Assembly (NCBI GenBank): GCA_010093995.1
Contig: ML992513.1
Location: forward strand, 431,203-495,202
DNA: 64,000 nucleotides
Origin: Elsinoe ampelina
Taxonomy: Eukaryota
Direction of reading: 5' to 3'
In this document: piece by piece, positions 1 through 16,986 of the stretch
Numbering within the stretch: position 1 is the first letter of the stretch
Layout of the letters: each line of letters starts with the position of its first letter
Notes under the pieces: generated by a model
What the model was told of the DNA's origin: nothing
The model's input: only the letters and a program-made list of their open reading frames with translations
Database searches by the model: none
Made by a program: the position numbers and the translations under genes

Positions 1-422
1 CTAATTATTAGTCCTTAGTAGAGGTGCTTCTTTACCTTATCTAGAGAGCTTAAGGAGAGGGTTAGTAACTATAACAATTACCTTACTAGTAGCGACAATA
101 GTAGTAACAACGCTAGAAGGCTAGAGCCTATCTCTATTGCCTCCTACGCCGCTCTAGAGAGTCTCTTTATATAGCTAGTATAATAGCTAGTCTATATAGT
201 AGTACGCTTACAAGCTATAACTACTAGCTTAATCTATACTAGTACTCTATTACACCTTATTTCAGCTTTAATTTTTACTTAATTTAGCGCTAATAACGAG
301 CAATTACTATCTATATTATCTCTAGACTTTTAGCTACTAAATTTTAGTAATATAAGGTTAGTATAAAATACTACTAAGCCTAGAGGTAGCTTGTTTAAAG
401 TAAATTTAACTATAAGTAGAGC

Positions 423-448
423 TAGTGTAACTATTAGAGTAGAGTTAG
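423..448 (+). repeat. Left terminal inverted repeat of hAT element (RIP-mutated)
   Basis: 26-bp inverted match to 8246-8271 with transition-only mismatches. Confidence 0.88.
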
Positions 449-829
449 CCCCTTTAGGTTTAGTACTATACTAGAGTTTAGGTTAGCCTCTAGCTAGCGT
501 AGTACTACTAAGGGCTTAGTAGTACTAGCACTAGCTCTATACTATAGCTATAATAGTACTATACTAGCACTAGATATAGGTCGAGTCGTATATATTCTAG
601 ACGTAGTATAGTACTAGGTTAGGTTAGTAGATAAGTAGTATAGTGCTATTAAGTCCTTAGTGTACTCTTACTAGTACTATACTAGAGTTACTATTCTTAT
701 AGTAAATTCTTATAGTAACTACTATATCCTATAACTCTTATTACTTTTCCGCTCTAAATACTTAAAGTTATAGTAGGTAAAGGATACTAGAGAGAAGTAA
801 AAGTTATTAATTATTAACCCTTATATATA

Positions 830-1265
830 ATTACGACCTAATAGTAATTTATAGAAGATTAACCTAATTAACATTATCTATATAACTCTTATAAGCCTAT
901 TTTACATACTTAGCTAGTAAGCCGTATACTACCTAGAACTAATACCTTATTATTTTATTATCTACTTTATCCGGAGAATATTTTATTCTTAGTAAGTTTA
1001 CTCTTATATAAATTATAACCCTTAACTAGTAAACTAGAGTACTAAAGCTATTAGACAGAGTCTAAGACTAGAATAATTAGTTCTAGGTAGTTTAGTCTTT
1101 CTACTAACTTATAGTATAGTTGCGAATTGCCTTAATGCTATTAGATTACTAGTTAATAGTAAGTATAAGGCTATCTAGAGCCTTAATTTCTGCCTAAAGG
1201 TTATTAATAAATTTATAGTAAGTAATATTAGCCTAACGAATAATAGAGGGGTAAGTAGTAGACAT
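830..1265 (-). pseudogene. RIP-mutated cargo ORF relic of unknown function
   Basis: ATG TCT ACT ACT at 1265 on the minus strand, followed by a codon-like frame (MSTTYPSIIR*ANITYYKFINNL*AEIKALDSL...) whose stops are TAG/TAA; end uncertain. Confidence 0.4.
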
Positions 1266-1529
1266 AGTAGTAGATTTGCTTAAATTCTAGCAACTATTAG
1301 TATAAGTTATACTATAGTAACGTAAAGGTATACTAGATAGTTATTTTAATATTTCTAAGGAGAGAAAGAAGTAACTTAGCTAATAATCTACTTATATCCC
1401 TTAGTATAACAATAGCTATTGTTTAATAATAGCTATTGTTAGTATTATTGTTTTTTTATAATAGATAATAGCTATTGTCTATATTATTGTTCTTATAATA
1501 GGTAATGCTAGATATATATACCTTTTAGT

Positions 1530-2540
1530 TACTATTTCTTCTTCTTTCTCTTAAACTTCTCTTTCTTGTTGTTTAATACTTCCTTCTATAATGCCTCCTT
1601 CTTACGCTTAACTCTACCTTAACCTAGTAGATTTAATTCTCTTTTAGCCTTGTAAGATAACTCCTAGTAACTACGCTAGGCTCTTATACCTATGTTAGTG
1701 TAAAGCCTATATCTACTATATAACTCTTATATATCTTAACTTTAATAACAACTACAAAATCTAAGCTAAATATATCTATAATAACTATAGAGGTTTAGTA
1801 CTTTGCTATAAAGCCTACTATACTTATAATACTCCTTATAACTTTATAGGTGTTTCTAATCTAATCTTTCTCTATAATCTAATAAATATTAGTATAATAT
1901 CTTATAGACTAATAACATCTTCGACCTAATTAATATATAGTATACTATTAATTGTCTTATTCTTAACAGAAGAGTAGATCTACTCTTACTCTTTACTATA
2001 TACTATAATATTAAACGTAAGTAGAAGAAGTTAGATTATATTAATAATAGTAATAATAGTATTTCTTCTAATAACTAATCTAATTAAGATAGTATAGTCG
2101 AAGCATTAGCGGGCTAATAGCTTTAGATAGTTATTAATAATATAGACTTATACTTTATAAAGACTTAATTACGTTACCTCTTCCTATAAGTAACTAAAAT
2201 TAACTATAACAACGGCGTATATAAGCTCTTAAAGTAGAAGTGTTTATATTACCTCTAGCTACACTAGTAGTTATATTACTACTCTAGGTAGCACTATTAG
2301 TACTAGTAGTAGAAGTACCTCCCTTGTTGTTCTCTTTACTATTAGTGTTATTCTAGAAAGTAACCTAACTATTATTAGGCTTAAACCTAGTAAGGAAGTC
2401 GGAAGTATAATAAGATAAATATTAGTAATAGTATAGAGAGTAGCGTTAGTAATAAGTTAGCTAAGGTTATAGGTGCTATAGTAGGAGTAGTTATCGAGGT
2501 TAATAATAAGGAGAGTAGCGCGGAGATTAGTTATAGCTTT
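1530..2540 (-). pseudogene. RIP-mutated cargo ORF relic of unknown function with basic C-terminus
   Basis: Minus-strand codon-like frame ending in a K/R-rich tail (KRKKEAL*KEVLNNKKEKFKRKKKK); boundaries approximate. Confidence 0.35.
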
Positions 2541-2869
2541 AGTCTTTATATTATAGTTAATCTATACGATTTTCTCGTTAACGTTTTTATAAGTAAATCT
2601 AGTATAACTAACATAGATACGAATATAGTTATATTAAAGATACTAGCGGGTAAGAGAATAAGCTTCCTTAGGGTAGCTAATAAAGGGAGACTATTAGCAT
2701 TAGTAGGTAGAATTATATATAGTAATAGAGAAGGTACGTATAGAAGTACTTTAGAGTAGGTATTAGTATAGATACTATAAGAGCATTATTGCTTAGAGGC
2801 TATTAACTAGATACGCTTAGAATACTAGCCTCTAACCTTAGTAATGTTATATAGTAGATCTTTGTCCTT

Positions 2870-5300
2870 ATTATACCCTTCTTCCTTATTAACCTCTTTG
2901 TCGCTTAAACTATAGATAGTAATATCTCTAAAGTTGTTACTTATACTATCTATCTCGCTATTAGTATTATTATTAGTAGTAGTAAAATTGTCTATCTTAG
3001 CTAATTAGATGTTTTAAAGATTGTTTTCTACTAGCTTAGAGACTATAATTTGTCGAATTGTCTATAGAAGTAGTCTATACCTTCGATTACTAATAATATT
3101 CTTCGCTATATTAAAAACACATTTAATACCTACGCTAGCGATTAGTATTATAAGAATATTATAAGTAACATAAGCTAGTTATAGGAATAAGTACTTATTT
3201 TCTTTCTACTAAGAAAGAATATTAAATTCTAATATTTTCTATATAGGTAAAGTTCTAAGGTAATTCTCCCCTTCTATTCTTATTATATAGATATTACTCT
3301 ACCCTTACGAAAGTATATTATCTTAGCTAGATACTAGAGGTGTAAAGCTACTCTCTATATTTGATAAGGAAGGCTTCTTAAACTAGTAAGTAATAGATAA
3401 GGCTAGTAGAGGAGGTAAGAGAGTAGTTTAAGAAGAGTAGTTATTATTATAGTAATTAAGGTAGTCGAGGAACTATTTATAGTAAAGCAATTTAAAATAT
3501 AGTTCCTACGAAGTATACTTATATATACTAAGTTTCTAAGTTAGATTTAAGATTATACTACAATTAAACAGGAAACCTTAACCTCTACTCGTTTACTTAT
3601 AATACTTAGAAAGCTTAGTATAACTAGCTTTTACTATATTTTATATAACTAATAGCTAGTCTAAGTTGTTATTCTCTTCCTAAGTAGACTTAACTACGTT
3701 AAGGAAGTTAAAAAGAGTATTATATATAAGCTATATATATTATACTAATAGTATATAAGACTAACTTAGCTAGTTAATTACATCCTTAAAATTCTCTAGT
3801 ATTTAGATAATAATCTTTAGATATGCCTATTTAGCGTAGCTAAGGTAAAGGTGTTTTATATCTACGTAATTAATAGATACTATGTCTTAATTAGCTAGCG
3901 CTTTATTAGTTTAGGGCTTATATACAATTACAATCTCCGCGTTAAGCTATTTATTAATAATTAGTTAAAGTTTAATAGCTCGCTTATATATATTATATGT
4001 TAAGTTCTAATAGGTATAAATATCCTAAATAACTAAGAGTCGTTTATAAGGAGGTAGATATGCTTAAAGGGATTTAAAGTGTTAGTAGCGTTAAGAGGAT
4101 TAGTTAATTATAATACAAATTGTATAGAGCTTTAAAATTAGTTAAAAAACTATAAAAAAGAACTATAAGAAATATAACTTACTTTATAGAGGGAATTCGG
4201 AACTAATAGAGTTATTTAGATATTATAGAGATACTACTTCTTAAGCTTATTAGCTTTCTTATTATCCTTAGTAGTTTCTAGCTATAGAGCTTAAATAATA
4301 TCTTATATAACAAGATTAATTACATAGGCTAGATATAGAATTATATTCTTAATAGAGAACTAGTATATATTCTTCTTCTTAAGACCTTATTATACTTTAG
4401 ATTATAGAGTGTTATTGTTACTTACATTGTCCGCTATAATAGTAAGAAGGTATATATTAATCTTTTTTTTATTTAGAACTCTTAGTAGTTCCGTGCTAAG
4501 TGTAACTCTAGTATACTATCTACTAATTAGTATAAAATCTAGTAGGCACTTACGTACTTACTAGTTATCGTTAATATAGTATACCTTTATAGCTATAAAA
4601 CTTAGATAGTTATTTATAGACTAGCTATCTAGCGCAATTAAAACTTTTATCTAACTACTAAGATTAGTAAGAAGATTAGACTAAATATCCTTATAGTGCT
4701 CTTTTAATAGCTCTAAGGCCCGTGTCTAACCTAGAATATTAGTATATAGCTAGAGGAAATATATAAATTAGAGAAAGAAGGAATTATTAACTGTTTAGAA
4801 TAACTAATTATAATTAATAAGGACCTTAATAAGCTCTTTTTTAAATTGTTCTAGGGAGAATTATAGTATATAGGATATAGTACTAGTAGTATTTGCTTTT
4901 AATTACGTTAGAGCTATCTAAGCTACTAATTGTTTATAGCTAGAAGATTTTATATTCTAGTAGCTTTAGTATCCGAGATGTTTTATTAGGTGTTTATTAC
5001 TAATCGAGTTTGTTATTAGGTGTTATAAAGCTCTACTATAGTAGAGACAATATATAAGAGGTATTCTATTAGTAAGCTTAGTACCTTTATTAAAGTTAGC
5101 CTAAATAACTCTATAGCGAGTTATAGAATTCTAGTTTAGTAGGTTTTATATTCCGCTAACTCTTAATTTACTACCTATTAATATTATAGGCTACTATATT
5201 TTCTAGGCTTATATAGCTAGCTATTCTTTAAGTAGTATATCTAGTTAGTAGGGTAGACAGCTAATAATTTTAATAGTTTTATAGAATTAAGTAGAGGATA
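2870..5300 (-). pseudogene. hAT transposase, RIP-inactivated
   Basis: Minus-strand relic motifs in the correct order: BED-finger-like YCLYY...KHLIKHL (~5050-4980), IALDS*S (ALDxWS, catalytic Asp, ~4630), IADNVSNN (~4420), YLAYVINL (CxAH), TY*NLTY (TRWNST, ~4010), and C-terminal dimerisation domain *KENKYLFL*LAYVTYNILIILIASVGIKCVFN (~3210-3110). Confidence 0.92.
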
Positions 5301-5589
5301 GATTATCCTAGCAATTAATATAGAACTCTTTAAGCTCGTAGGGGAGAGGTAGTAGTAGCGTAACAACTTCTAAAAGTATCTATAGTTAAGAATTAACCGA
5401 GTCTTTATTAAATACTAACATTTTAAAAATAGAAATATAGAATATTACTAGCTATATAATAAGGAGTAGAAGACTATAAGAATGCTCTATAAGAATCTAT
5501 TAGCTACTCTTAATTTATAGATTAAAAAAATTTTAATAGTATAGAACTAGAAAGCTACTAAAACTATAGTCTAATTTTCCTAACTTAAG

Positions 5590-6867
5590 GTTAATCTATT
5601 TATTCTTATCTATATCGTCCTTACTCTTACTCTTCTTATTATTATTATTACTCTTATCTATTACCTTATTATTATCTTTATTCTAATTCTCTTTATTAGA
5701 ATTATTAAAGTCCCTAGTAGTAACTACCTTATAGTATATTTTAGCTACTTTCTTAGTCTTATACTTGTTAGGTTTCTTATTAAGGAGGTTTTTAATCTTA
5801 GAGTTGTTCTTAACTTCTTCTTTAACCTTATTATTACTATACTTAACATAGTAATTGTTAAATTTAAGTAAAATATTATTATTCTTATACTTAAATTCTA
5901 GTTCGAGAGTAAGTTTATATTTACTTTAATAGATTAGTATATAACTATAAGAAACAACTATAAAAAATAACATATACCTAATTATTTACCTATACTACTT
6001 AGAGTTTAGTAGGTGTTATATTCTTAATAAACTTCTTAAACTTAGCTTAGTTATTATTATTATAGTTACTAGTATTATATAGCAAGTTAATACTATTATA
6101 GTAGATCTTATAGGTCTATTTCTTAAGAATTCTACTAGTGCTAAGAAGACATTTTACTTAGCAATTTAGAAATATATTTATCTTGTTATAGAGCGCCTTC
6201 TTTGTATAATTAGTAAGGAGTTACTTATAGTAAAGAAGAGTATTAGCTTTATAGATACTACTCTATTTTTAGTAGATAGATATAAACTTATCCTCTAACT
6301 ATTCCTCTATATAGAATTAGTAGATGTACTATAAGAATATACTATAAGAAATATACTACTCTACTAGGTATAATAGTAAGTCTCCGCTATCTTCTTATAT
6401 ACTATATTAAAGATAGCTTCTTTCTCCTTATTAAATATTACTTAGAATTCCTTAGAGTTCTTAAGTTTTGCCTTAAGTATATATTTTATAGAGCAATTAG
6501 TATTACTAGTAGTAGTAAGAGCTTTCTCCTCTATACTAGCTTATATAGTATAATCTCTTTACTAAATAGCTCGCTAGGTATTACTAAGCTATACTTTCTA
6601 CTATAGAATTCTAAGGAGGTAGCTATAGTAAGAAGTTCTAGTATTCTAAGAGCGATTTTTAATCTAGTATTTAATCTTATTAGCCTCGGAATTAAAACTC
6701 TATAGTCTAGTTAGTATTTAACTATAAGAAGCATCTATAAGAATTACTCCTATTATAGTAAGGATTACTTCCTCTTCCTTAGTTATTTCTTTAGTCTTAA
6801 TTACTAGAGTATTAGTTATCTCTTTCTCTTTACTAAAGGTTTACTAATCTATAGGATTAGTAGACAT
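5590..6867 (-). pseudogene. RIP-mutated cargo ORF relic (~400 codons), divergent from the H3-like gene
   Basis: ATG TCT ACT AAT at 6867 on the minus strand; long codon-like frame interrupted by RIP-type stops, with a charged low-complexity tail; no family recognised. Confidence 0.45.
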
Positions 6868-7243
6868 TATAGATTAAGAATTAGTAGTAATTTATAAGAG
6901 AAAGTAGAATATTAAGTATAATAGGAAGCGAGATATAAGATATAAGTTTTATAAGGAGAAGATAAGGAGAGAAGAATTTAGCATTTCTTATATATATAGT
7001 AAATAGAGTAGCTAGGAATATAAGTAATAATAGGTATTAATTCTATTGTTATACTAATATAAAGTTGTTAATATTGTTAATATAAAGTTATTATAGTAGA
7101 GAATAACAATACAAAATTTATATTCTATATACTATTATAAATTCCTTAATAAGGCTTAATATCTTACTCTTAGTATTTTCGCCTTACTCTTCTTTACCTT
7201 TATAAACAAATTTTAATAATTAATTTAATAAATTTACATAGCT

Positions 7244-7825
7244 ATAGCTCGTAAGAAGTAAGTAACACCTCTAAAAAGGGTAAAGCTAAGAAAGTAAGGC
7301 ACTAAGAAAACCACCGCTAAAAAGTCTACTATAGGTAGTTACGTAACAAAATTTAAACTAGTATTAACTAGACAAATTCGCTAGGTAAAGAGCTATAGGT
7401 TTAAGCTAGGTAGTTAGTTTCTTATAGTAAATTCTTATAGTCTTATATCTAATATAGTATAGCCGTTGCCCTCTAAGAGATTTATTACTACTAGAAGATA
7501 ACTAAACTTCTTATATATAAGCTTCTCTTCTCCTATATTGTTTATAATATTATATAAGATATTAAGTTAACACTTATAAGTAGAGATTTACGCTTTACGC
7601 TAGATACTATTAAGTGTCTCTAGGAAGTAAGTAAGGTAATACTAGTAGAATATTTCAAAGGTATATTAACTATGTATTTAGAATATATAATACCTTATAC
7701 TAATAACTATAGTAGACTATAATCTTAACGCTATCTATGCTAAGCGTTATACTATTATATAGAAAGACTCTTAGCTTGCTAGGAAATATTATAATAAGTA
7801 CTACTTACTTACTTTCTCTAATTAG
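7244..7825 (+). pseudogene. Histone H3-like variant gene (2 introns), RIP-inactivated, inside the hAT element
   Basis: Reads (M>I)ARKK*V...KKTTAKKST...VKSYRFKLG|TVAL*EIYYY*KITKLLIYKLLFSYIVYNII*D...DLRFTLDTIKCL*EVSKVILVEYFK|DYNLNAIYAKRYTII*KDS*LARK. Reversing C>T/G>A gives MARKKQ...[36 protein letters not shown]...DLRF...LQE...FED.NL.AIHAKR.TI..KD.QLAR, i.e. an H3 histone fold. GT-AG introns at ~7413-7462 and 7661-7715. Confidence 0.93.
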
Positions 7826-8245
7826 TAAGACCTTTCCTCTATAATGCTATAAGAATAAACTATAAGAAATAGATAGGTTTATTTTTATATAGACTAGACT
7901 ATTAAATTTCCTTTCTATAGACTTATTACAATACTAAAGTACAGTGTAGTAGCTATAGTTGCCTTAAAGCCTAACTAAGGCGTAGTGCTATAACGTAGTA
8001 TAATACTAGGATTTAACTCTAGTGCTAATTCGGTGTAGTGCTATTATAGTGTAGTGTAGCGCTATTATAGTGCAGTGCTATTCTTGCTTAACTACGGTGC
8101 GGTGCTAGTGCTAGTGTAGCTCGGCGCAGTACTAGTGCTAGTGCTAATGTAGTAGGGTGCGGAGCTGGTGCTATTTAGTTCAGCACCGGGTGCCGACCCG
8201 CTAAGAACAGCTCCGCACCAGCACCGGGGTCGGCCTTCGGCCGCC

Positions 8246-8271
8246 CCAACCCCGCCCCAACGGTCACACTA
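8246..8271 (-). repeat. Right terminal inverted repeat of hAT element (essentially unmutated)
   Basis: CCAACCCCGCCCCAACGGTCACACTA followed by TSD AGCGGGGC. Confidence 0.88.
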
Positions 8272-8312
8272 AGCGGGGCAGGCTTCAGCTCGATCAGTTC
8301 GTTGCATGATCA

Positions 8313-11300
8313 TCATCTACTGTACAATTCATCATCATCTGCGCTTTGCTCAGGCTGTGTGATCCTTTCCAACCTCGCTCCATGCGCCTCCAACAACTTG
8401 GCACACTCCCTCTGATCAGCATCGATGGCTGCACGGAGAGCCTCATCCAGCTGGTTCTCGGACCAGGCGAGTCCAAATCCTTCCTTGACGGGCATGTACG
8501 CCTCCAAAGCAGATGCCGGACCCTGCGCGCCCGAGTCTTGTCTTGCCTGCGCACCGGCCGCTACCAGGAGGTCTGCCGTATCTTGCCGCCCATACCGCCG
8601 GGCAACGTCCAGTGGTGTGTCACCATCCTTGTTCCTGTTATTGAGTGCAACGTCGGCCTGAAGCAGATATTGCAGAACTTCAGTGCTTTTGTTGAGTGCG
8701 GCGAGATGCAAGAGGTCGTTACCGTTCACGTCCAACGCAGATGGTTTGCCCCCGAAAGCGGACATCTGCTTGACAATATCAGGCGAAGGACTGTGCAACG
8801 CGGTGATATGCAGCACCGAGACAGGTCGTTGATTCCAGTTGAGCCTACGGTTGTGCATCAGTAAAGACTGAATTGCCGGCCAGGAGAAGTAGGCAGATGC
8901 TGCAAATAAGGAATCGCGATCCTCCGCCAAGTCGATGAAGCTATTGTTGTTGTGCGTCAGCCAGTATTGTAGTACATGCTGGAGACCTTGTCTTGCAGCG
9001 ACTACCAGGATCGAGTCACCGCCGCTGTCAGATCGTCTCAAGCGCCCTCCACGACCGAGCAGTATCAAGACGCAAGAAGTATTCTCCGCTTGCAAAGCTG
9101 ATGCAAGGGCCACATCTGGATCAAGCTCTGCTTTCTCGGCCATGTCCACGGAGGGAGACAGGTCGAAGGCATTGTTCCATCGGGCACCCGCTTCCAAGGC
9201 GACTTCACAATTGTCCCACTGCATAGCCCACTCGAGGGTACCATGTATGTTGGCCCCGAGTCGTGTAAGCATCTGTGCCACTTCGTCGTCTTGCTCGATG
9301 AGTGCAGCGCAGAGCGCCGCGCCCATCCTAAATCCGGTGCTTTCGATCTCAAAGAAGAGTGATAGAAATTCTTCCTCCGAGTACATCTTGCTCGCACGGC
9401 AAAGAGCATATAATGGCCAGTCTCGGAGCCGCACTAGCGCTATTCTGGTGGTACTCTTCTGCAAGAGAAGTCTGATAATGTCCGTCCATCCTTGCAAGCA
9501 AGCTTTTGACAGGAGGCTCTGATTTTGGGAATCATAAGACTGGTCGTCGAGAAGTGCGATGCCAGGATCTGCCCCACTCAATAGACAGAACACTATCAAG
9601 TCTAGACATTCATGGAGCGCAGCTAGCTGCAGAACCATGTTGATCCCATTCAGACCAGATACTGTCAATTTGTAGACAGCGTCATTGAGCACTTCCCAGG
9701 TGGGCACAAATGTGTCTCCGCTGAGTGATCTCGGAACGAATGGCTGAAGAACACGCTTTTCGACCGATCGAGGTCCTAGATCGTCACTGAGTACGATCTC
9801 ATGGTCGGCTTCGCGGGGATCGTGTATGAAGGAAGTCTTGCAGGCTTCAAGACCTGCCACTCTTCGGATGGATCCCTTATCATAGAGCCAGATCCTTTCT
9901 AGTAGGCGAATGGCTATGCGGCCTGCAGTCGCTCTGGTCTCGGGGTTGCGCAATCTGCGTAATGCTAAAGCCAAAGCTGTGGTCCTGAAGCCACCGCCTG
10001 AAACGACATCATCCTCGCCGGCATCGATGAGAAAGTCGACTAAAGCCTCATCGAGCTGGTAGGTAGCAGTCAGCAATGGGCTTCCGACAGTCGGACAAGG
10101 GAGTCTCGGGTCAAATGCGTGATTGTGCTCGCGGAGCAGCTTGTAGGCTTCCAGATTGCCACAGCTTACTGCCTCAGACAAAGCTGGACCATGTCCGGCC
10201 GTCACGATGTCGGCTCGAGCTCCAGCATCGAGCAAAAGCTGCAAGATTTTGAGCTTCTCTGCTTTGCGGAAGCCATCGCTGCAAATCGAGACAGCAGCAT
10301 TGACAGGGGATCCATAATTACCTGACACACTTGTGCTGATCCCGTAATTCGTTATGAGGTATCGTACCACATCAATCTCCCCCGAAGCTACTGCGGCAAT
10401 GAGTGGATCGGCGAAGTATCCAGTCAGACGCGAGGTGGAAGCACTGTTGGACAATAGAAATTTCACGATCGACAGATGACCACCCCATGCGGCAGCACAG
10501 AGGGGTGTTCCCAGAATGATTCCAGGTAAAGTGCACTCTCCACTATCGTTACGAAGGTCCTCAGGCGACAGCTCAAGCTTGAATCTGCCAGTGTACATGT
10601 TGTGTTCGATGAGCGACAACTTTGGCAATCCCCGCCAGCCTGTGCGCAGAGGAATGTAGCGACTGAAATCATCGAGCTTCTGTGTTTCTCGGTGGACAAC
10701 GGCAGATTTATCGACGTTCACCTGGTAAGAGCCTGGAAAGTATGTCATGACCGGTTGAACGGGGCTCCACGCTGGTACAAATGTTGTTACAGTGCGCACC
10801 GCGTCCGGATCGGCGCCCTTTCCAATCAGTAATTTGACGATGTGAAGATGTCCGTTAGCGGCAGCGGCACAGAGCGGGGTTCCATAGTACGTCTTTTGAT
10901 CGACATCGTAGCCTGCAGAGAGGAGTATCTCAACGACTTCCTTGTGACCACGAGCACAGGCAGCAACGAGAGGGCTGCCATACCAGCCGGATGGACTCGA
11001 AAATTGCACCTCTTTGGCCATTAGTATCTTGATGACTGGAGTTAATCCTGCAAGCGCAGCAAGATAGAGTGGATCTTGGGTGACACCTCGAAAAGAGGTG
11101 TTGACTCCGGCAGCTTGGCTGGAGGACTCCGCTGCATTGGACCTTTCTTGCGTGGAGTCGAGCAGGTGGGACAGAGGGTGCTGGACACCGTCAGGATTGG
11201 AGAAGTGTAGCCATGTTTGGTAAGCAACAGGACTGTCGGTGAAAAGCTCCTCCAACATGATGAGAACCTCTGGCGACGAAGCTGCAGCGTCCGCGGCGTG

Positions 11301-13766
11301 CTCAAACCAATTGCTTGAAGCCCAGTGCAAGAAAGGACGATCGACGTCATTCTGTTGTGCGATGTCTGTGGACTCGAGATCGAGCAGATACGTCAGACAT
11401 GTACCGACCAGGACGCCTTTCATGGTTGCTTTGTCAAATCCTACCAGGTCCTCTGCGTTACCTCGGTCGAAGAACTCCTTGATTGAGAGATGACCGAGCC
11501 GGATTGTTCGCTTGTCTGATGTGTGGTCTTTGATTACTGTCAAGAGGGCGGGACACATACTTTCGATGTCCGCATCTAGGAGTCTATCGTCGATATGGAA
11601 TCTCCGGCGATTATTTTGGTCCGTACAATGAGTAGCCAGAGCATCCCTGGCTTCATCAAAGGACATAGCCTTTCCGAAAGCGGCTAGAAGCTGGACAAGT
11701 TTGATCTCACGCGGAGAAGTCATCCGCTCCAATACACGTCGGTACAATTGAATCAGATCAAGCGGTACGGATCCGAGCTCTTTCTGTAGCTCTCGAACTG
11801 TGCGGCACTTCTCCAGTATCTTCAGATAGCTGACCACCCATTGGAACCTGTACTAGATCAGACATCGGTTTGAGTCATGGTACGTTTGTCGATCCATACA
11901 TATCTTCTGGGCCATTCTGTATGACTTCGACAATGAGTTGGAGATTCTCTTCGTTCCAGAGAGTATCATTGTTCCGACTCGAGAGTTGTTGCTCGCACCA
12001 CGTAGTCAGGAGAGACGACAGATCCGGTAGAAGCAATTTGGCTTTCATTTGTAATGTCTCGAACTCATCAACAACGTGCGTGAATGCTCTGGTTGCTTCA
12101 TATGGATCTCTACAAGTGACCAGGAGGTGCGCCCGAGGTTTTCGATGGGCAATGAATCCAGAAATCCACTGATCGATCTGATGCCTGGGGTCTTCGCTCG
12201 TCTCGTCAAGTGCGTCCAGAATGATGAAGACTTCCTCCGAAGACTCAAGCAGGTCATCAAGCAGTTTCACCAATGTGATGGTACTCGGCCGACGTATGCC
12301 TTCTGCATGCTGGCTATAAGCCTCGTGGACACTTGCAGGCGACTTGGTTGTCAGCGTGAAGAGCTGTGCACATAGGGATCGAAGCACATCGGAATACGCC
12401 CCTCTCTCAGATGCATCGCCGTGTCTGAAGTAGTGGTAGACAACTCTATTGCCTGTGCATGCTAGGTGATTGGTAATGTAGGAGACCAGTGTCGTCTTAC
12501 CACTACCGAGCCTACCAGAAAGCCATAGGAATGATCCTTGGGTCGTGATCCAACTGATGTAGCTTTCATGGTTGAAAATCCACTCGCCGGTACCAGGGTG
12601 GTGGGTCTCCAGTGCGTTGTTGTGGATGCCAGATGTATCAGAAGGGCACAGCCAGTCCAGGATACTCTTGCTTTCGTATTTCCGCTGACCAATTGCGACG
12701 GAGACTTTCAGCTCCTGCACGTGTGTAGACAGATCTTGCAGATCTATTTGCGAGTCAGCCACTGGAATTCATCGTAGGGTCGGGTGAAGCCCCAACCTGA
12801 CTGATATTGCTTCACAGAGTCGATAGGGAGCTTTCTGAGGACCTCACGAGCAAATGCGGCAGCATTGATGGAGGCAAATCCCTGCCATCGATCGTTTTTG
12901 TGCGAGTCGCAGTAATCAGATATACCCCTTACCACGAGACACTCAATGGACGTCAGTGCACCAGCAGCTTCCATTTCGAAACAGATGATGCCGTCGTTTC
13001 TGGACAGCGTGTCTCTCAGATAAGCGTCCTTGATCACCGCATTGCCAGTAGCTATGGTCCCCATGTGCAACACGAAAGCTCCGGAGGATCCAGCAGTTTT
13101 CGGGCGAGGTACATAAGTGCTGAGATCACAGCCCGCATCTTCGCACTCAAGCTGTTCCTTGACGTGTTGCACATTTGAAGGGAATAACCTGTCTTCATAG
13201 CCTCCGGGATATTCGAATTGCTTCCTGGCCTGGGGGTTGGGGATCTTCTTCACCAGCTTCACATTGTCAAGCAATGCATCTGGCCCTTCCCACTCAAGCA
13301 TCTCCTCGACTTTGTTGGCGGCATTCGTCAGTATCCTCGGGGGTGCAGGGATATAGCCGGTACGCTCGAACAGACCACGTTTAGCTTTGCCACTGTCGTA
13401 CTGGATGCATCCCGAGTGCGAACCAGTAGGTTTGCCGACCACAACATGTCCAAGCCGAATCTCCCCATTGCTTGTTATGGTTGGCACTCCGCCTCCAATG
13501 CCGACCAGCAAAGCGAATTTCAAATTTGGGAATGTCCTTCTCATGTGCGTCACTGAGCTTGCTGTAATTGTGTTGCCAGTCGTGGAGAGACGACACAGCA
13601 CGACATTATGCTTGTGGATCTCCCCAAGCTCGTAGACATTATGGTCTGATTCTGGTTGAGCAAATCCCTCGTGCAGCTCATCAAGCATGCATTTTGCAGC
13701 AAGATACTCGACCTTGAGAGGACACACCCACCCAATTTGGTAGTCCTCGGGACGCAGTTGCTTCAT
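8313..13766 (-). CDS. NLR-like protein: PNP_UDP (nucleoside phosphorylase-like) - NACHT - ankyrin repeats, ~1782 aa, 3 exons
   Basis: Three track ORFs join in frame via introns 12744-12796 and 11848-11899 (GT...branch-like CTGAC/CTGAT...AG). PNP motifs LVGIGGG, FEMEAAG, RGISDYCDSHKN; Walker A GRLGSGKT; Walker B FIILDALDE; MFQWV across the junction; many ankyrin repeats (TPLCAAA, GDTPLDVA). Confidence 0.93.
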
Positions 13767-14012
13767 GTTGGATCATCTCGGGTTTGGTCGCAAGGACACA
13801 TGTCCCGAGGTGTCGTTGAAACGGATTTGACGGGTCTTTACCAAAGGTGATAGCCAGTTGTAGGAATGACAAGTTCGTAGAAATTGGTGAGCTGCGGCTG
13901 AGAGCCATAGCCACGACCCGTCATGCCCGTGACTGTGCCGCATTCGACCTGCTGGCGAATCAGATGGCGTGTCGATCTGGCCAATGAGAATATTGGCTTG
14001 TCACAGTTGCCA

Positions 14013-15662
14013 CCTCCGAGAGTGCGAGTTTCTTCGGTCTTGGCGTTGTTTACCTCCTTATCCACTCCATCACACGTAACTCTATATAGTTATTACTCCA
14101 TCAATAACGTGTTATTGAAGCTTAAACGATTATAGGACGTGGCAAAGACCTCCCTTTATAGCTCTATTAAACTATAATTGCTTATTACTTTAATCTTAGC
14201 CTCTCTATCTTAGAGGTAGAGAAGCTCCTCGGAATCTATAAGAACATCCTCTAAAGCCTATTCTCTAAGGTTTTAAAGGCTGCTAAGAGTAGTAAATTAC
14301 ATAAATTAATAGAGTATATAAAGAATAAAGACCTATAAGGCCTAAAACTGCTTATTACACTAGGCTTGGCTAAGTCTTTTATAGTTTAAAATACTATCTA
14401 GCTAAATAGCAGCTAGGATCTAGTCATCTCCACTAACTAGACAAATAAGCATAAAGCACTCTAAGAACTCAATATAAACATTCTAAAGCTTTATAAGAAG
14501 TAGGTCTTTAATATTAAAGACTATCTAGATTATTACGCTAGCGACCTAGAGAGTAATAAGTCTATTAGTTGCAATTATAAGATTAGGAAGTCTAGTTAGT
14601 ATTCTCTAGAGTATTAACTCGAATATACTAAGGACAGTAGTAAGCTTTATAGATATATTAAAGAATAAGCTATTCTTATTATCTATAATAAAAAGAAGTA
14701 GACCTTTAGTGGCATAGCTAATAAACAAGTCTCTATACCTTAAGAAGTAACTCTAATTAGAATAGAGATCTTACTAAACTTTATGCGTAAGTAATAGACT
14801 ACTATAAGTACTTAAAATTGCTCTATACTATAGCCTTATATTGTGTAGAACTTTAACAATGTTAAGCAGTATAATCTAAAGAGCAAACTAGCCGTTATTA
14901 ATGCTATAAACCGCCGGCTTATAGATAAGAAGCGCTAGCGAGCTATCTATAATAAGGACTTAGAGGAGTACTAGTAGCTAGAGGCTCTTTAACGCTATAT
15001 CTATAAAGTTAATAAGAGTAATACTAAATCTAGTTTTAAGTACAAGACTTATAAGAAGGAGCTAGAATAGCTATTTAAATACAACAACTTTAAGGCTAAA
15101 GCACGTAAACTTAATAGCCTCTAGTATGCCTTTAAAGTCTATAATAAGCTACTCTTTCCTTATATAGAGTAGCTTAAAGGCTCTAACTCTAGCTGCCGCG
15201 TAGTAGTAATTAAAGACAATAGCACTATTTATTATAAGACTCGAAAGATTATAGCCTACTACATTAAGGAGCTTAGTATTAAATTTAGTAGTTATCTAGC
15301 CTTTTTACTAGATTTAAATCCTTGTAAAACACTCTACTATAAATAAAAGAAGCTTCTTAAAGCCTTTATGTTTGTAGTTCGTAATTAGAAGAAGGCTATA
15401 AGGTTAGAGGCTAATATAAGACTTAAGGCTGTCTAGGAAGTAAAGGAGTTTAACTAAAAGGTGAGGAAGTACTATAGTTTAGCAGCTTTTAAGAAGCTAA
15501 GAAAGAAGTATAGAGATGTATAAGGTTACAACAATTACTCTAAATAAGAATAACACCTTCAAGTTCAAAATTGATAGAATAATCAAGCCTTAAAGTAATG
15601 AGATAGTTAGTGATACAACTCCATGAAGCCGCCAAGACCGAAGAAACTCGCACTCTCGGAGG
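14013..15662 (+). mobile_element. Tc1/mariner-superfamily DNA transposon (1650 bp), RIP-inactivated
   Basis: Perfect 33-bp TIRs CCTCCGAGAGTGCGAGTTTCTTCGGTCTTGGCG (14013-14045 and 15630-15662); AT-rich RIP-type interior; flanked by CA on both sides. Confidence 0.92.
14132..15547 (+). pseudogene. Tc1-like DDE transposase relic (DD36E after de-RIP)
   Basis: N-terminal HTH-like (M>I)GRGKDLP...; VVVIKDNSTIY (EDN..VH) and YLAFLLDLNPCK (PAFSPDLNPCE) motifs; 36 codons between the second Asp and the inferred Glu. Confidence 0.85.
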
Positions 15663-16069
15663 CATATCGAGAGTACTCGTTAGAAGAGCCTCTGGGAGGA
15701 CGGCAAGAGATACTACATCGGACCGAGATTGATGTATAGGCACCTGAAACAAGCCTTTTGTCGCAGCATTGATGGTCATCATGCCCACGAGATCACGATG
15801 TAGATGCAAAATGGTGCCAAAGACAGCAGACCTCGGTGTTTCTGAGCCGTCCCGTGGCGTGGGGAACGGCAGCTTTCCTTCGATTTCACACCACACTGAA
15901 TGGCGGGGTAGATCCCTGTATAATTTCCTTATATTGCGCACAAAACTAGTCATGCCTCGGCACCGACACTAACATGTATATAGCAGGTTAGCTGCTTCGA
16001 AGGTAAGCGGGCTTTCCTCTATGTCACTGCTCTCTCATCGCCTTCTTCCTTCGCCACTCCTACCTGATC

Positions 16070-16986
16070 ATGAAGGTCACTTCTATCATTCTCACAGCTT
16101 TCGCTGTTGGCATCAATGCCCAGCGTAACATCACTCAGCCAGCAGGTTGTCCTGCCCTTCCCATCTCCAGCTTGGGTAATCCAATTCCCATCAAGCCGGA
16201 GAACATTCCCCGAGGATGCCGCGACTTTGAGATCCTCTTTGGTACGTCCACTTACCACTTGCAGTCTCTGCCACTATACCTCCCTTGCTACCGTGCCATC
16301 TCATCGCTCTTCCATCATCCTTCTTCTATGTTCACCTCAATCTCCTGCCCCACCATCTCCACAGTCTACTCCATCGCTCTCGTTCCCCCCCATCTCTCCC
16401 CCGCCCTCCATCCCCAACCTCAACGACTGACCACCTTCTAGCGCGCGGCACCTCCGAACCCGATTTCGCTCCCGACGGCCGCTACGGCGTCGTAGTAGGC
16501 GACCCAATCTACTCCAACCTCACGCGCGTCTTCCGCGACGTGCAAGGCTACCCCGTACAATACCCCGCCAGCTCCGCCAACGACTCGGCCCTCATGGGCG
16601 CGACCGACGTCATCCGGCGCCTCAACGCCCAATCCCGCGCCTGTCCCCGCCAACGCTTCGCCCTCGTCGGATACTCCCAAGGCGCAGGCGTCATCCGCCT
16701 CGCAGCCAACGCATTGAACGACACACGCATCGAGAACAAGATCGTGGCGTTTGTCGGGGTGGGGGATCCGGCGCGGCGGAGTGGGAGGGAACTGTTGTTG
16801 CCGCCTGCTGTGGGGAGGAGGCAGTATCAGATTTGTGCGGGGACGGGGACGCCGGACTCGGATCCCGTGTGTGATGGGTTTGGCAGGGGTTGTTTCTTTT
16901 TTCATTTGACGTATATTCAGCCGGCGAATGTGAAGTTGGCGGTGGACTTTTTGGTGCAGCAGTTTAGGGGGGCGGAGAGGAGGTAG
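16070..16986 (+). CDS. Secreted cutinase / CE5-family esterase (2 exons)
   Basis: Signal peptide MKVTSIILTAFAVGINA; intron 16242-16441 restores LFARGTSEP; nucleophile motif GYSQG, GDP, DPVC and a His in FHLTY. Confidence 0.9.

What the first reader, a model, noticed from the sequence alone, without database searches (positions are those of the whole stretch)
423..8271. Complete multi-gene hAT transposon carrying its own histone H3 variant
Seen: TIRs, an 8-bp TSD, a transposase relic and an intron-containing H3-like gene all lie inside one 7.85-kb unit, with about three more cargo ORFs. None of this appears in the ORF track because RIP destroyed the frames. Known (from memory): H3-like genes transduplicated by hAT elements have been reported in Pyrenophora tritici-repentis. 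Inference: this is a cargo-bearing element whose histone, and perhaps the other ORFs, could alter host chromatin (silencing evasion or target-site choice). Retained introns imply DNA-level capture, not retroposition.
Basis: partly seen in the sequence, partly recalled or inferred. Interest (0 to 1): 0.9.

Follow-up and report, generated by a model that had tools for sequence, protein, structure and literature searches.

The report
Dead hAT transposon carrying histone H3-like gene
This is a complete but mutation-riddled copy of a fungal "cut-and-paste" transposon that carries its own histone H3-like gene, a kind of element already described in Pyrenophora tritici-repentis and in banana and maize leaf-spot fungi, so it is a new member of a known family rather than a new kind of thing.

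Summary
Window 423-8271 is one 7,849-bp hAT DNA transposon. It has 25-nt terminal inverted repeats, an 8-bp target-site duplication, a transposase relic and an H3-like gene relic with two introns. [quoted passage not shown]

The sample's own read contigs show a multi-copy family. Its copies part from this locus exactly at 423 and cover the H3-like part about as deeply as the rest.

By-eye comparison with the published un-RIPped P. tritici-repentis (Ptr) consensus shows the same layout: transposase, a "central ORF", then a divergent H3-like gene. H3L intron positions, central-ORF exon lengths and derived H3L residues also match. Both elements carry a tandem 9-mer pair in short introns of all three genes.

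It is therefore a dead relative of the Ptr "H3L-hAT" (Manning 2013; Dhillon 2019), with different termini and about 2 kb of extra, unexplained left-arm DNA.

Of the "about three more cargo ORFs", only the central ORF is supported. A present chromatin function is excluded for this copy: the start codon is lost and 9 stops interrupt H3L.

Possibly new are the intron-borne motif and the hint that H3L is an old resident gene of this transposon lineage, not a repeated capture.

Interest is modest.

The parts
415..422 (.). Left copy of the 8-bp target-site duplication (AGTAGAGC, RIP-changed)
   Evidence: 18 of 8,142 8-mers RIP-compatible with the right copy
423..447 (+). Left terminal inverted repeat, starts TAGTG, heavily RIPped
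   Evidence: 25 of 25 positions identical or transition against the right end. Contigs of other copies diverge exactly at 423 (table 7).
423..730 (.). Left subterminal region, inverted likeness to the right subterminal region
   Evidence: Purine/pyrimidine local alignment score 352, against 252-258 +/- 17-18 (maximum 303) for interior chunks
694..715 (+). Tandem 9-mer pair TTCTTATAG-N4-TTCTTATAG, 271 nt from the left end
   Evidence: The Ptr consensus has a like pair at a like distance (by eye).
760..2824 (.). Left arm of unknown content, absent from the 5.6-kb Ptr element
   Evidence: No Pfam hit in six frames. No internal duplication. Family depth as high as elsewhere.
2825..5421 (-). hAT transposase relic. 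Exon 1 is 5421-4183, a 53-nt intron is 4182-4130, exon 2 is 4129-2825. BED-like part about 5175-4975, core 4710-4246, dimerisation domain 3274-3038.
   Evidence: The intron joins the two frames that carry the homology exactly, in phase 0.
5452..5507 (-). 56-nt motif-bearing intron-like segment upstream of the transposase ATG (5421)
   Evidence: inferred from GT..AG and the motif
5596..6867 (-). Central ORF relic. Exons 6867-6769, 6699-6360, 6306-5976 and 5923-5596; three motif-bearing introns of 69, 53 and 52 nt; K/N-rich tail.
   Evidence: Model joins in frame: 1,098 nt, 25 internal stops. Likeness to the Ptr central ORF is by eye only. No database homologue found.
6868..7243 (.). Intergenic region between the divergent central ORF and H3L (presumed shared promoter)
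   Evidence: Position only; inferred
7244..7825 (+). Histone H3-like gene relic. Exons 7244-7412, 7463-7660 and 7716-7825; introns 7413-7462 (50 nt, with motif pair) and 7661-7715 (55 nt). Start ATG>ATA; 9 internal stops.
7847..7868 (-). Tandem 9-mer pair downstream of H3L, 403 nt from the right end, inverted relative to the left-end pair
8151..8271 (.). Right terminal stretch that escaped RIP (GC 66%), ending in the right TIR 8247-8271
8272..8279 (.). Right copy of the target-site duplication (AGCGGGGC)

Best explanation
A full-length but dead copy of a three-gene hAT DNA transposon of the 'H3L-hAT' kind first described in Pyrenophora tritici-repentis.

**History proposed.**
- An active ancestor inserted by hAT cut-and-paste transposition. 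It duplicated 8 bp of target about 40 bp beyond the 3' end of an NLR-like gene, at the edge of a repeat block (inferred).
- The family multiplied to tens of copies. That made it a target of repeat-induced point mutation.
- RIP turned C:G into T:A throughout all but the last ~120 bp and destroyed all three genes: transposase, central ORF and H3-like histone.
- The copy now has no coding function and is simply part of an AT-rich block.

**Shown:** termini, TSD, hAT domains, H3 homology, the RIP signature, multi-copy status, and the family boundary at 423.

**Inferred:** the order of events, the gene models, and homology to the Ptr element gene by gene (by eye only).
For: - Termini and TSD.
- hAT dimerisation domain above the Pfam cut-off.
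- Core similar to a hAT-type protein. A Pfam scan of that protein gave only a weak hAT-like RNase-H match (E 0.007, 17 bits against a cut-off of 27).
- A 53-nt GT..AG intron (4182-4130) joins the two homology-bearing frames exactly.
- H3 match of exon 2. A three-exon model gives 158 codons ending in an old stop codon.
- RIP indices.
- Family evidence from the sample's own contigs:
  - Summed word depth is 8,900-16,500 across 669-8016 against 162 in the unique flank (run X1), and 5,200-9,900 against 151 (run X2).
  - The differences are 364 transitions against 3 transversions (X1).
  - 4-5 contigs have loose ends exactly at 423.
  - The H3L bins are at 9,400-10,400 (X1). No bin falls to single-copy depth, so no private nested insertion longer than a bin.
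- Ptr consensus read by eye:
  - Same gene order and orientation.
  - H3L introns in the codons equivalent to T45 and D106, both phase 1.
  - Shared H3L peculiarities: N for C110, KDSQLAR, a C-terminal extension, a long N-tail.
  - The same transposase intron site after VPNSL[R/Y]K.
  - Central ORF exons of 340 and 328-331 nt in both.
Against: - No formal alignment to the Ptr element could be run. Its sequence is only in a paper supplement, so all gene-by-gene likeness is by eye.
- The termini differ from Ptr (TAGTGTGACC... against TACGCTGGCA...). The element is 2.2 kb longer.
- The central ORF found no homologue among 1.84 billion representatives. That query had its third exon out of frame and introns read through.
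- The H3L exon found no word-sharing relative.
- Pfam Histone is below its curated cut-off (19.4 against 26.4 bits).
- The left flank is itself repetitive and RIPped, so the TSD rests on 5 identities plus 3 transitions.
- Summed contig depth is not a copy number.
Confidence: 0.85

Rival explanations
1. The H3-like gene was captured recently and independently from this host's own genomic H3 gene (transduplication with introns).
For: The H3L has two introns. Both papers treat H3 in hAT elements as capture events, and Dhillon 2019 calls the Ptr case independent.
Against: - H3L differs from canonical H3 in the same ways as the Ptr H3L: N at the C110 position, S in KDSQLAR, a C-terminal extension (by eye).
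- Its intron 1 carries the element's own tandem motif, as in Ptr.
- That motif is absent from the 56 kb of host DNA in the window.
Confidence: 0.1
2. The 7.85-kb stretch is a composite. A shorter hAT element received an unrelated insertion of about 2 kb in its left arm (760-2824), so it is not one original unit.
For: The Ptr element has nothing between its left motif pair and the transposase stop (by eye). No gene is recognisable in 760-2824.
Against: Depth in 669-3006 is as high as in the rest, 8,900-16,500 in X1, so the segment is shared by the family. No internal repeat or second terminus was found.
Confidence: 0.25
3. The element, or its family, is still functional. It supplies a variant histone that changes chromatin at its own copies or in the host.
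For: In Ptr the H3L is transcribed (ESTs; PMC3538342, section 20).
Against: - Here the start codon is lost and there are 9 stops in H3L, 76 in the transposase model and 25 internal stops in the central ORF model.
- The other copies differ mainly by further transitions.
- No RNA run holds the stretch: the kind was 'dna' and no holder on record is RNA.
Confidence: 0.04

Closest known systems
H3L-carrying hAT element of Pyrenophora tritici-repentis (Manning et al. 2013, PMC3538342; consensus in Dhillon et al. 2019, additional file 2)
   Same: - hAT transposase, central ORF and divergent H3-like gene between the TIRs, in the same order and orientation.
- H3L with a long N-tail and two introns at the same codons.
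- The same transposase intron site.
- Central ORF with three short introns and an acidic tail (here K/N-rich after G>A changes).
- A tandem 9-mer pair in the introns and near both ends. It is 8 of 9 alike once two RIP changes are allowed.
- G-rich GGGTTGGGG-type subterminal DNA.

All comparisons are by eye.
   Different: - 7.85 kb against 5.6 kb, with about 2 kb of extra left arm.
- Different TIR sequence.
- A 5-residue insertion in H3L loop L1.
- Heavily RIPped and dead, whereas the Ptr copies are nearly identical and expressed.
hAT elements with H3-like sequences of Mycosphaerellaceae (Pseudocercospora fijiensis, Cercospora zeae-maydis and others; Dhillon et al. 2019, PMC6710886)
   Same: - hAT with an 8-bp TSD and short TIRs.
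- H3-like sequence near the right end.
- All copies RIP-inactivated and confined to AT-rich blocks.
- Tens to hundreds of copies.
- A dispersed short tandem motif: TAGTCGGCA/TGCCGACTA occurs 30 times in the 45 kb of consensus sequences.
   Different: - No exact word of 9-18 nt from this element's termini or H3L region occurs in their consensus sequences. That is 0 of 5 terms and 0 of 6 terms.
- A 12-mer at the intron-1 donor is shared with the C. zeae-maydis consensus.
- The TIRs differ.
- Their elements are about 9.5 kb with one or two H3-like copies, described by the authors as intron-less retrocopies.
Introner-like elements of Dothideomycetes (recalled: van der Burgt et al. 2012; not read here)
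   Same: Several short introns in different genes share a common sequence.
   Different: Here the shared part is a 22-nt tandem motif. It is confined to one transposon and also stands outside introns near both ends. No genome-wide spread was seen.

Membership tests
hAT superfamily of DNA transposons | 8-bp target-site duplication | tested here: met
   5 identities plus 3 RIP-direction transitions; chance about 18 in 8,142
hAT superfamily of DNA transposons | Short terminal inverted repeats beginning YARNG (consensus recalled, from no call) | tested here: met
   25-nt TIR beginning TAGTG
hAT superfamily of DNA transposons | Transposase with the C-terminal hAT dimerisation domain | tested here: met
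   PF05699 at 29 bits against a cut-off of 21.4
hAT superfamily of DNA transposons | RNase-H-like catalytic core with DDE residues and a CxxH motif | tested here: inconclusive
   Core aligns over 155 residues (29% identity, E 2e-11) with a hAT-type protein, including DN.SNN and the LA[HY]V.NL region. Catalytic residues were not assigned in the RIPped sequence.
hAT superfamily of DNA transposons | N-terminal BED-type zinc finger | tested here: inconclusive
   No Pfam hit. A C..C...H....H-like pattern with C>Y changes is seen by eye only, at about 5175-4975.
Ptr-type H3L-hAT (Manning 2013) | Transposase, central ORF and H3-like gene between one pair of TIRs | tested here: met
   Relics at 5421-2825 (-), 6867-5596 (-) and 7244-7825 (+). 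The identity of the central ORF is by eye only.
Ptr-type H3L-hAT (Manning 2013) | H3L that is neither canonical H3 nor CenH3, with insertions in the N-terminal tail | tested here: met
   57 residues up to the T45 equivalent, against 45 in H3. The comparison with CenH3 was not made.
Ptr-type H3L-hAT (Manning 2013) | Same termini and DNA-level identity with the Ptr element | tested here: not met
   The TIRs differ. Length is 7.85 kb against 5.6 kb. A formal DNA alignment was not possible.
Mycosphaerellaceae H3-hAT families (Dhillon 2019) | DNA likeness to one of the six published consensus sequences | tested here: not met
   0 of 11 exact words of 9-18 nt from this element's termini and H3L region were found. 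One 12-mer at the intron-1 donor is shared with Czm. This is a crude test, since line breaks and RIP can hide matches.
Repeat-induced point mutation (RIP) | C:G to T:A transitions with CpA>TpA bias, confined to repeated DNA | tested here: met
   Indices. Differences between copies are 364 transitions against 3 transversions in X1. The unique flank is unaffected.
Transduplication (capture of a host gene by a DNA transposon) | The cargo derives from a host gene of the same genome | not testable with these tools
   No genome is held and the host H3 was not seen.

The most novel reading that the evidence does not exclude
The H3-like gene is not casual cargo. It is an old, resident gene of one hAT lineage that spans Pleosporales-type (Ptr) elements, this element and perhaps the Mycosphaerellaceae elements. 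It would have been inherited together with the central ORF, whose acidic tail might suit a histone partner.

The lineage is also marked by a family of about 50-nt introns in all three genes. Each is filled with a lineage-specific tandem 9-mer pair that also stands, inverted, near both ends. That motif would be a cis site read by an element-encoded protein, for example the transposase BED finger. It could act in synapsis, in self-regulation of transcription, or in splicing.

This would overturn the published view of independent, retrocopy-type captures.
Probability: 0.3. Interest if true: 0.55.

Novelty: new member of a known kind. Interest (0 to 1): 0.35.

Why it matters
As a locus it is an ordinary fossil repeat that helps build an AT-rich block next to an NLR-like gene.

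Its value is comparative. It is a third, diverged and RIPped, relative of the histone-carrying hAT elements. It shares intron positions, derived histone residues and an intron-borne tandem motif with the active Ptr element. That would mean a transposon lineage has kept its own histone variant over long periods.

This makes one question testable: does a mobile element use a private histone, and a private DNA or RNA motif, for its own chromatin or regulation?

Tried and rejected
- **Whole genome:** none is held, so no copy census, no de-RIPed consensus and no host H3.
- **Pfam on raw six-frame translations:** Repeated with stops read as X.
- **First word-indexed protein search of the transposase:** no hit. 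I had chosen the frame of exon 2 for the whole stretch, so the words came mostly from out-of-frame sequence. It was not a fair test.
- **Second search, exon 1 frame:** 1 hit among 5,186 candidates.
- **H3L exon 2 word search:** 2 candidates, none scored.
- **Central ORF against 1.84 billion representatives:** 0 hits. The query read three introns through, and I later found its third exon to be in another frame, so the blank means little.
- **ESM Atlas:** Not pursued.
- **tblastn of P0001 on the window:** failed because of stops. Replaced by BLASTP on the X reading.
- **Stop-density map of the six frames:** did not separate coding from antisense frames. Dropped.
- **Second H3-like copy in the element:** none found.
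- **Other copies or termini in the window:** none.
- **Left flank 1-422 as part of the same family:** only a chance-level alignment.
- **Left arm as an internal duplication:** none.
- **Earlier notes of this scan:** nothing.
- **Sequencing runs:** only two, both from one sample that may be the source of the assembly. There is no independent isolate and no empty site.
- **Papers:** PMC4994206 and the 2025 HTT preprint only cite or brush the topic.


Full report
**What is there**

The first 8.15 kb of the window is AT-rich (GC about 26%), against about 53% in the rest. It carries a strong RIP signature. TA/AT is 1.83 and (CA+TG)/(AC+GT) is 0.21 in 423-8150. In 8272-14000 the values are 0.50 and 1.40.

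The claimed termini are real.
- The left end from 423 and the reverse complement of the right end up to 8271 agree at 25 of 25 positions if C>T and G>A transitions are allowed.
- The right copy is the un-mutated one (TAGTGTGACCGTTGG...) and the left copy is the RIPped one.
- In purine/pyrimidine space the 25-mer and the 18-mer each occur once per strand in the whole window, at 423 and 8271.
- The flanking 8-mers are AGTAGAGC (left) and AGCGGGGC (right). That is five identities and three differences, all in the RIP direction. Only 18 of 8,142 8-mers of the RIPped block would fit as well.
- The subterminal ~300 nt of the two ends are more alike, in inverted orientation, than either is to interior chunks. 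The score is 352 against 252-258 with SD 17-18 and a maximum of 303.
- The last ~120 nt at the right end escaped RIP (GC 66%).

**Family evidence**

No genome is held for this window. Two sequencing runs of one sample hold the stretch. They may be the source of the assembly, so they are not independent.

Laying their contigs on 1-10000 shows the following.
- Summed word depth is 8,900-16,500 (X1) and 5,200-9,900 (X2) in every bin from 669 to 8016. In the unique flank 8351-10000 it is 162 and 151.
- The tool warns that this is not a copy number. I read it only as 'many copies'.
- Differences to this copy are 364 transitions against 3 transversions in X1, and 375 against 1 in X2. This is as expected of RIP among copies.
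- Four to five contigs match from 423 onward and carry other sequence before it. The family boundary therefore lies exactly at the proposed left end.
- The bins that hold the H3-like gene (7015-7682) stand at 9,400-10,400 in X1. Most copies therefore keep it.
- No bin drops to single-copy depth. This argues against a private nested insertion.
- Two deletion derivatives are seen at about single-copy depth: 4965>6576 and 6519>7704, each with a few filler letters.
- The left flank 1-334 is itself repetitive (depth 4,101 and 3,544). It is not alignable to the element beyond chance.

**The genes**

*Transposase relic.* Pfam on stop-as-X translations of all six frames finds only the hAT dimerisation domain, on the minus strand at about 3038-3274 (29 bits, cut-off 21.4).
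- A second frame upstream carries the catalytic core. Window 4246-4710 aligns with a 450-residue protein of Rhizophagus irregularis (P0001) that has the classic hAT core motifs. The E-value is 7.9e-7 database-wide and 2e-11 pairwise with 29% identity.
- P0001 itself has only a weak Pfam hAT-like RNase-H match.
- The two frames are joined exactly, in phase 0, by a 53-nt GT..AG segment at 4182-4130.
- With an ATG kept at 5421, the relic is 848 codons with 76 stops, terminal stop included.

*H3-like relic, plus strand.*
- Exon 2 (7463-7660) matches histone H3 residues 46-105 at E 2e-5. All 60 listed PDB hits, of 157 at E up to 1, are histone H3 or H3-like.
- Pfam Histone gives E 0.0013, below its cut-off.
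- A three-exon model runs 7244-7412, 7463-7660 and 7716-7825, with introns of 50 and 55 nt (GTTAGT..TAG and GTATAT..TAG). It gives 158 codons with the start changed to ATA and nine internal stops.
- Relative to canonical H3 it has a longer N-tail, five extra residues in loop L1 and a C-terminal extension.
- There is no second H3-like copy in the element.

*Central ORF relic.* Between transposase and H3L, on the minus strand, a four-exon model joins in frame over 1,098 nt with 25 internal stops.
- The exons are 6867-6769, 6699-6360, 6306-5976 and 5923-5596.
- The donor of the third intron reads AT, a G>A change from GT.
- The last 110 residues are dominated by K (29) and N (24). That is what G>A changes make of E and D.
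- This gene has no database support: phmmer found 0 hits among 1.84 billion representatives. That query read the introns through and, as I later found, had exon 3 in the wrong frame.

**An unexpected shared motif**

- The 9-mer CTATAAGAA (or its complement) occurs 14 times in the element, against 0.9 expected (maximum 4 in 300 simulations).
- It always stands in tandem pairs with a 13-nt period, at eight sites.
- It occurs nowhere else in the window, even in purine/pyrimidine space.
- Six pairs lie in short GT..AG segments (50-69 nt) between the donor and a CTAAY-like branch site, and all six are sense-oriented:
  - H3L intron 1;
  - the transposase intron;
  - three central-ORF introns;
  - one segment upstream of the transposase ATG.
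- The other two pairs lie 271 nt from the left end and 403 nt from the right end, inverted relative to each other.

**Comparison with what is known**

Two papers describe hAT elements that carry H3-like genes.

*Manning et al. 2013* (PMC3538342; passages and part 1 of section 20 read).
[quoted passage not shown] It also has a 2.3-kb derivative.
- The copies are nearly identical and transcribed.

*Dhillon et al. 2019* (PMC6710886; abstract, Results and Discussion part 1 read).
- They describe about 9.5-kb hAT elements with a 20-bp TIR, an 8-bp TSD and one or two H3-like copies in P. fijiensis.
- All copies are RIPped. Relatives occur in five more Mycosphaerellaceae.
- They interpret the copies as captured, intron-less retrocopies and the Ptr case as independent.

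Their additional file 2 holds the consensus sequences. I read parts 1, 4 and 5 and searched the whole file by words. I could not load these sequences into any aligner, so what follows is by eye.

Likeness to the un-RIPped Ptr consensus:
- The gene order and orientations are the same as here.
- Its H3L has introns in the same two codons. ...[10 protein letters not shown] corresponds to ...KLG|T-VAL*EI here, and ...YFE|D-CNINAIHAKR corresponds to ...YFK|D-YNLNAIYAKR here.
- It shares N at the C110 position, KDSQLAR and a ...LL[A/T]F... extension.
- Its transposase has an intron right after VPNSLRK (here VPNSLYK), followed by a well-matching stretch.
- Its central ORF has three introns, exons 2 and 3 of 340 and 328 nt (here 340 and 331), and an acidic tail.
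- Its introns hold TTATCACAG-N4-TTATCACAG. That 9-mer and its complement occur 11 times in the file, and all passages shown lie in the Ptr consensus.
- Allowing two TpG>TpA changes, this is 8 of 9 identical to the motif here.
- Like pairs stand at like places near both ends of the Ptr element.

Differences and further points:
- The TIRs differ: Ptr TACGCTGGCA..., Czm TAGAGGTTAG..., Pfi and Peu TAGACCCC....
- None of 11 exact words from this element's termini and H3L region occurs in any consensus.
- In the Czm and Pfi consensus sequences an intron-like interruption sits at the same H3 codon. It is filled with those lineages' own tandem motif. TAGTCGGCA/TGCCGACTA occurs 30 times in the file.
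- Neither paper's main text mentions such a motif. A library search for introner + hAT + Dothideomycetes gave nothing relevant.

**Verdict**

The finding is real and well described structurally. It is a RIP-killed member of a known kind of element.

The functional speculation (chromatin effects) cannot apply to this copy.

Two things remain unexplained:
- the ~2-kb left arm (760-2824), which is absent from Ptr and has no Pfam hit and no internal duplication;
- the role of the tandem motif.

The most interesting reading is that the H3-like gene and the motif-bearing introns are ancestral to a widespread hAT lineage, rather than repeated captures. It needs formal alignments and trees that I could not make here.

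**Surroundings**

The right end lies about 40 bp from the 3' end of an intact NLR-like gene on the minus strand, about 13772-8313. It combines a weak, sub-cut-off PNP_UDP match with NACHT and ankyrin domains. RIP did not spread into it.

Noticed in passing
window 8313-13772 (minus strand): Large open frames that together look like a fungal NLR-type gene. There is a weak phosphorylase-superfamily (PNP_UDP) N-terminal match (22.9 bits, below the 25.1 cut-off), a NACHT/NPHP3_N NTPase, and many ankyrin repeats. Its 3' end is about 40 bp from the transposon's right end and is untouched by RIP.
   Followed up: partly
window about 14100-15600: A second AT-rich patch (GC 23-41% per 100 nt). Its RIP signature is milder: TA/AT 1.71 and (CA+TG)/(AC+GT) 0.65. 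It is not related to the hAT element.
   Followed up: no
window 16231-16983 (+): Open frame with a cutinase domain (Pfam E 1.8e-20).
   Followed up: no
window 1-422: The left flank is another RIPped repeat. Summed contig depth is 4,101 and 3,544 against about 160 for unique DNA. The AT-rich block runs off the window's start.
   Followed up: partly
window 1395-1500 and 7040-7110: A 12-mer, AATAGCTATTGT, occurs 4 times, all as near-palindromic copies seen by eye at 1395-1500. ATTGTT/AACAAT words also cluster in the intergenic region between the central ORF and H3L. They may be promoter elements; this was not tested.
   Followed up: no
Dhillon 2019 additional file 2 (Pfi_cons, Czm_cons): By eye, one H3-like copy in each published consensus is interrupted at the T45 codon by an intron-like segment (GTAAGT...TAG). 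It is filled with a tandem motif. This is at odds with the paper's conclusion that the copies are intron-less retrocopies. The '16-residue insertion' of the second P. fijiensis copy may be this segment read through.
   Followed up: partly
Dhillon 2019 additional file 2, Czm_cons: By eye, a stretch of the C. zeae-maydis consensus translates to a GGIL.D..DLGKT-like helicase motif I, as in SNF2-type ATPases. The larger Mycosphaerellaceae elements may therefore carry further chromatin-related cargo. Nothing like it was found in this window's element.
   Followed up: no
window 4965-6576 and 6519-7704: Contigs of the same sample join across these stretches with 17 and 22 filler letters. The depths are 311 and 216 in X1, and 232 and 120 in X2 (X1 about one to two times, X2 roughly 0.8 to 1.5 times the unique-flank depth of 162 and 151). 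These are internal-deletion derivatives of the family, one of them lacking most of H3L (table 5c).
   Followed up: no
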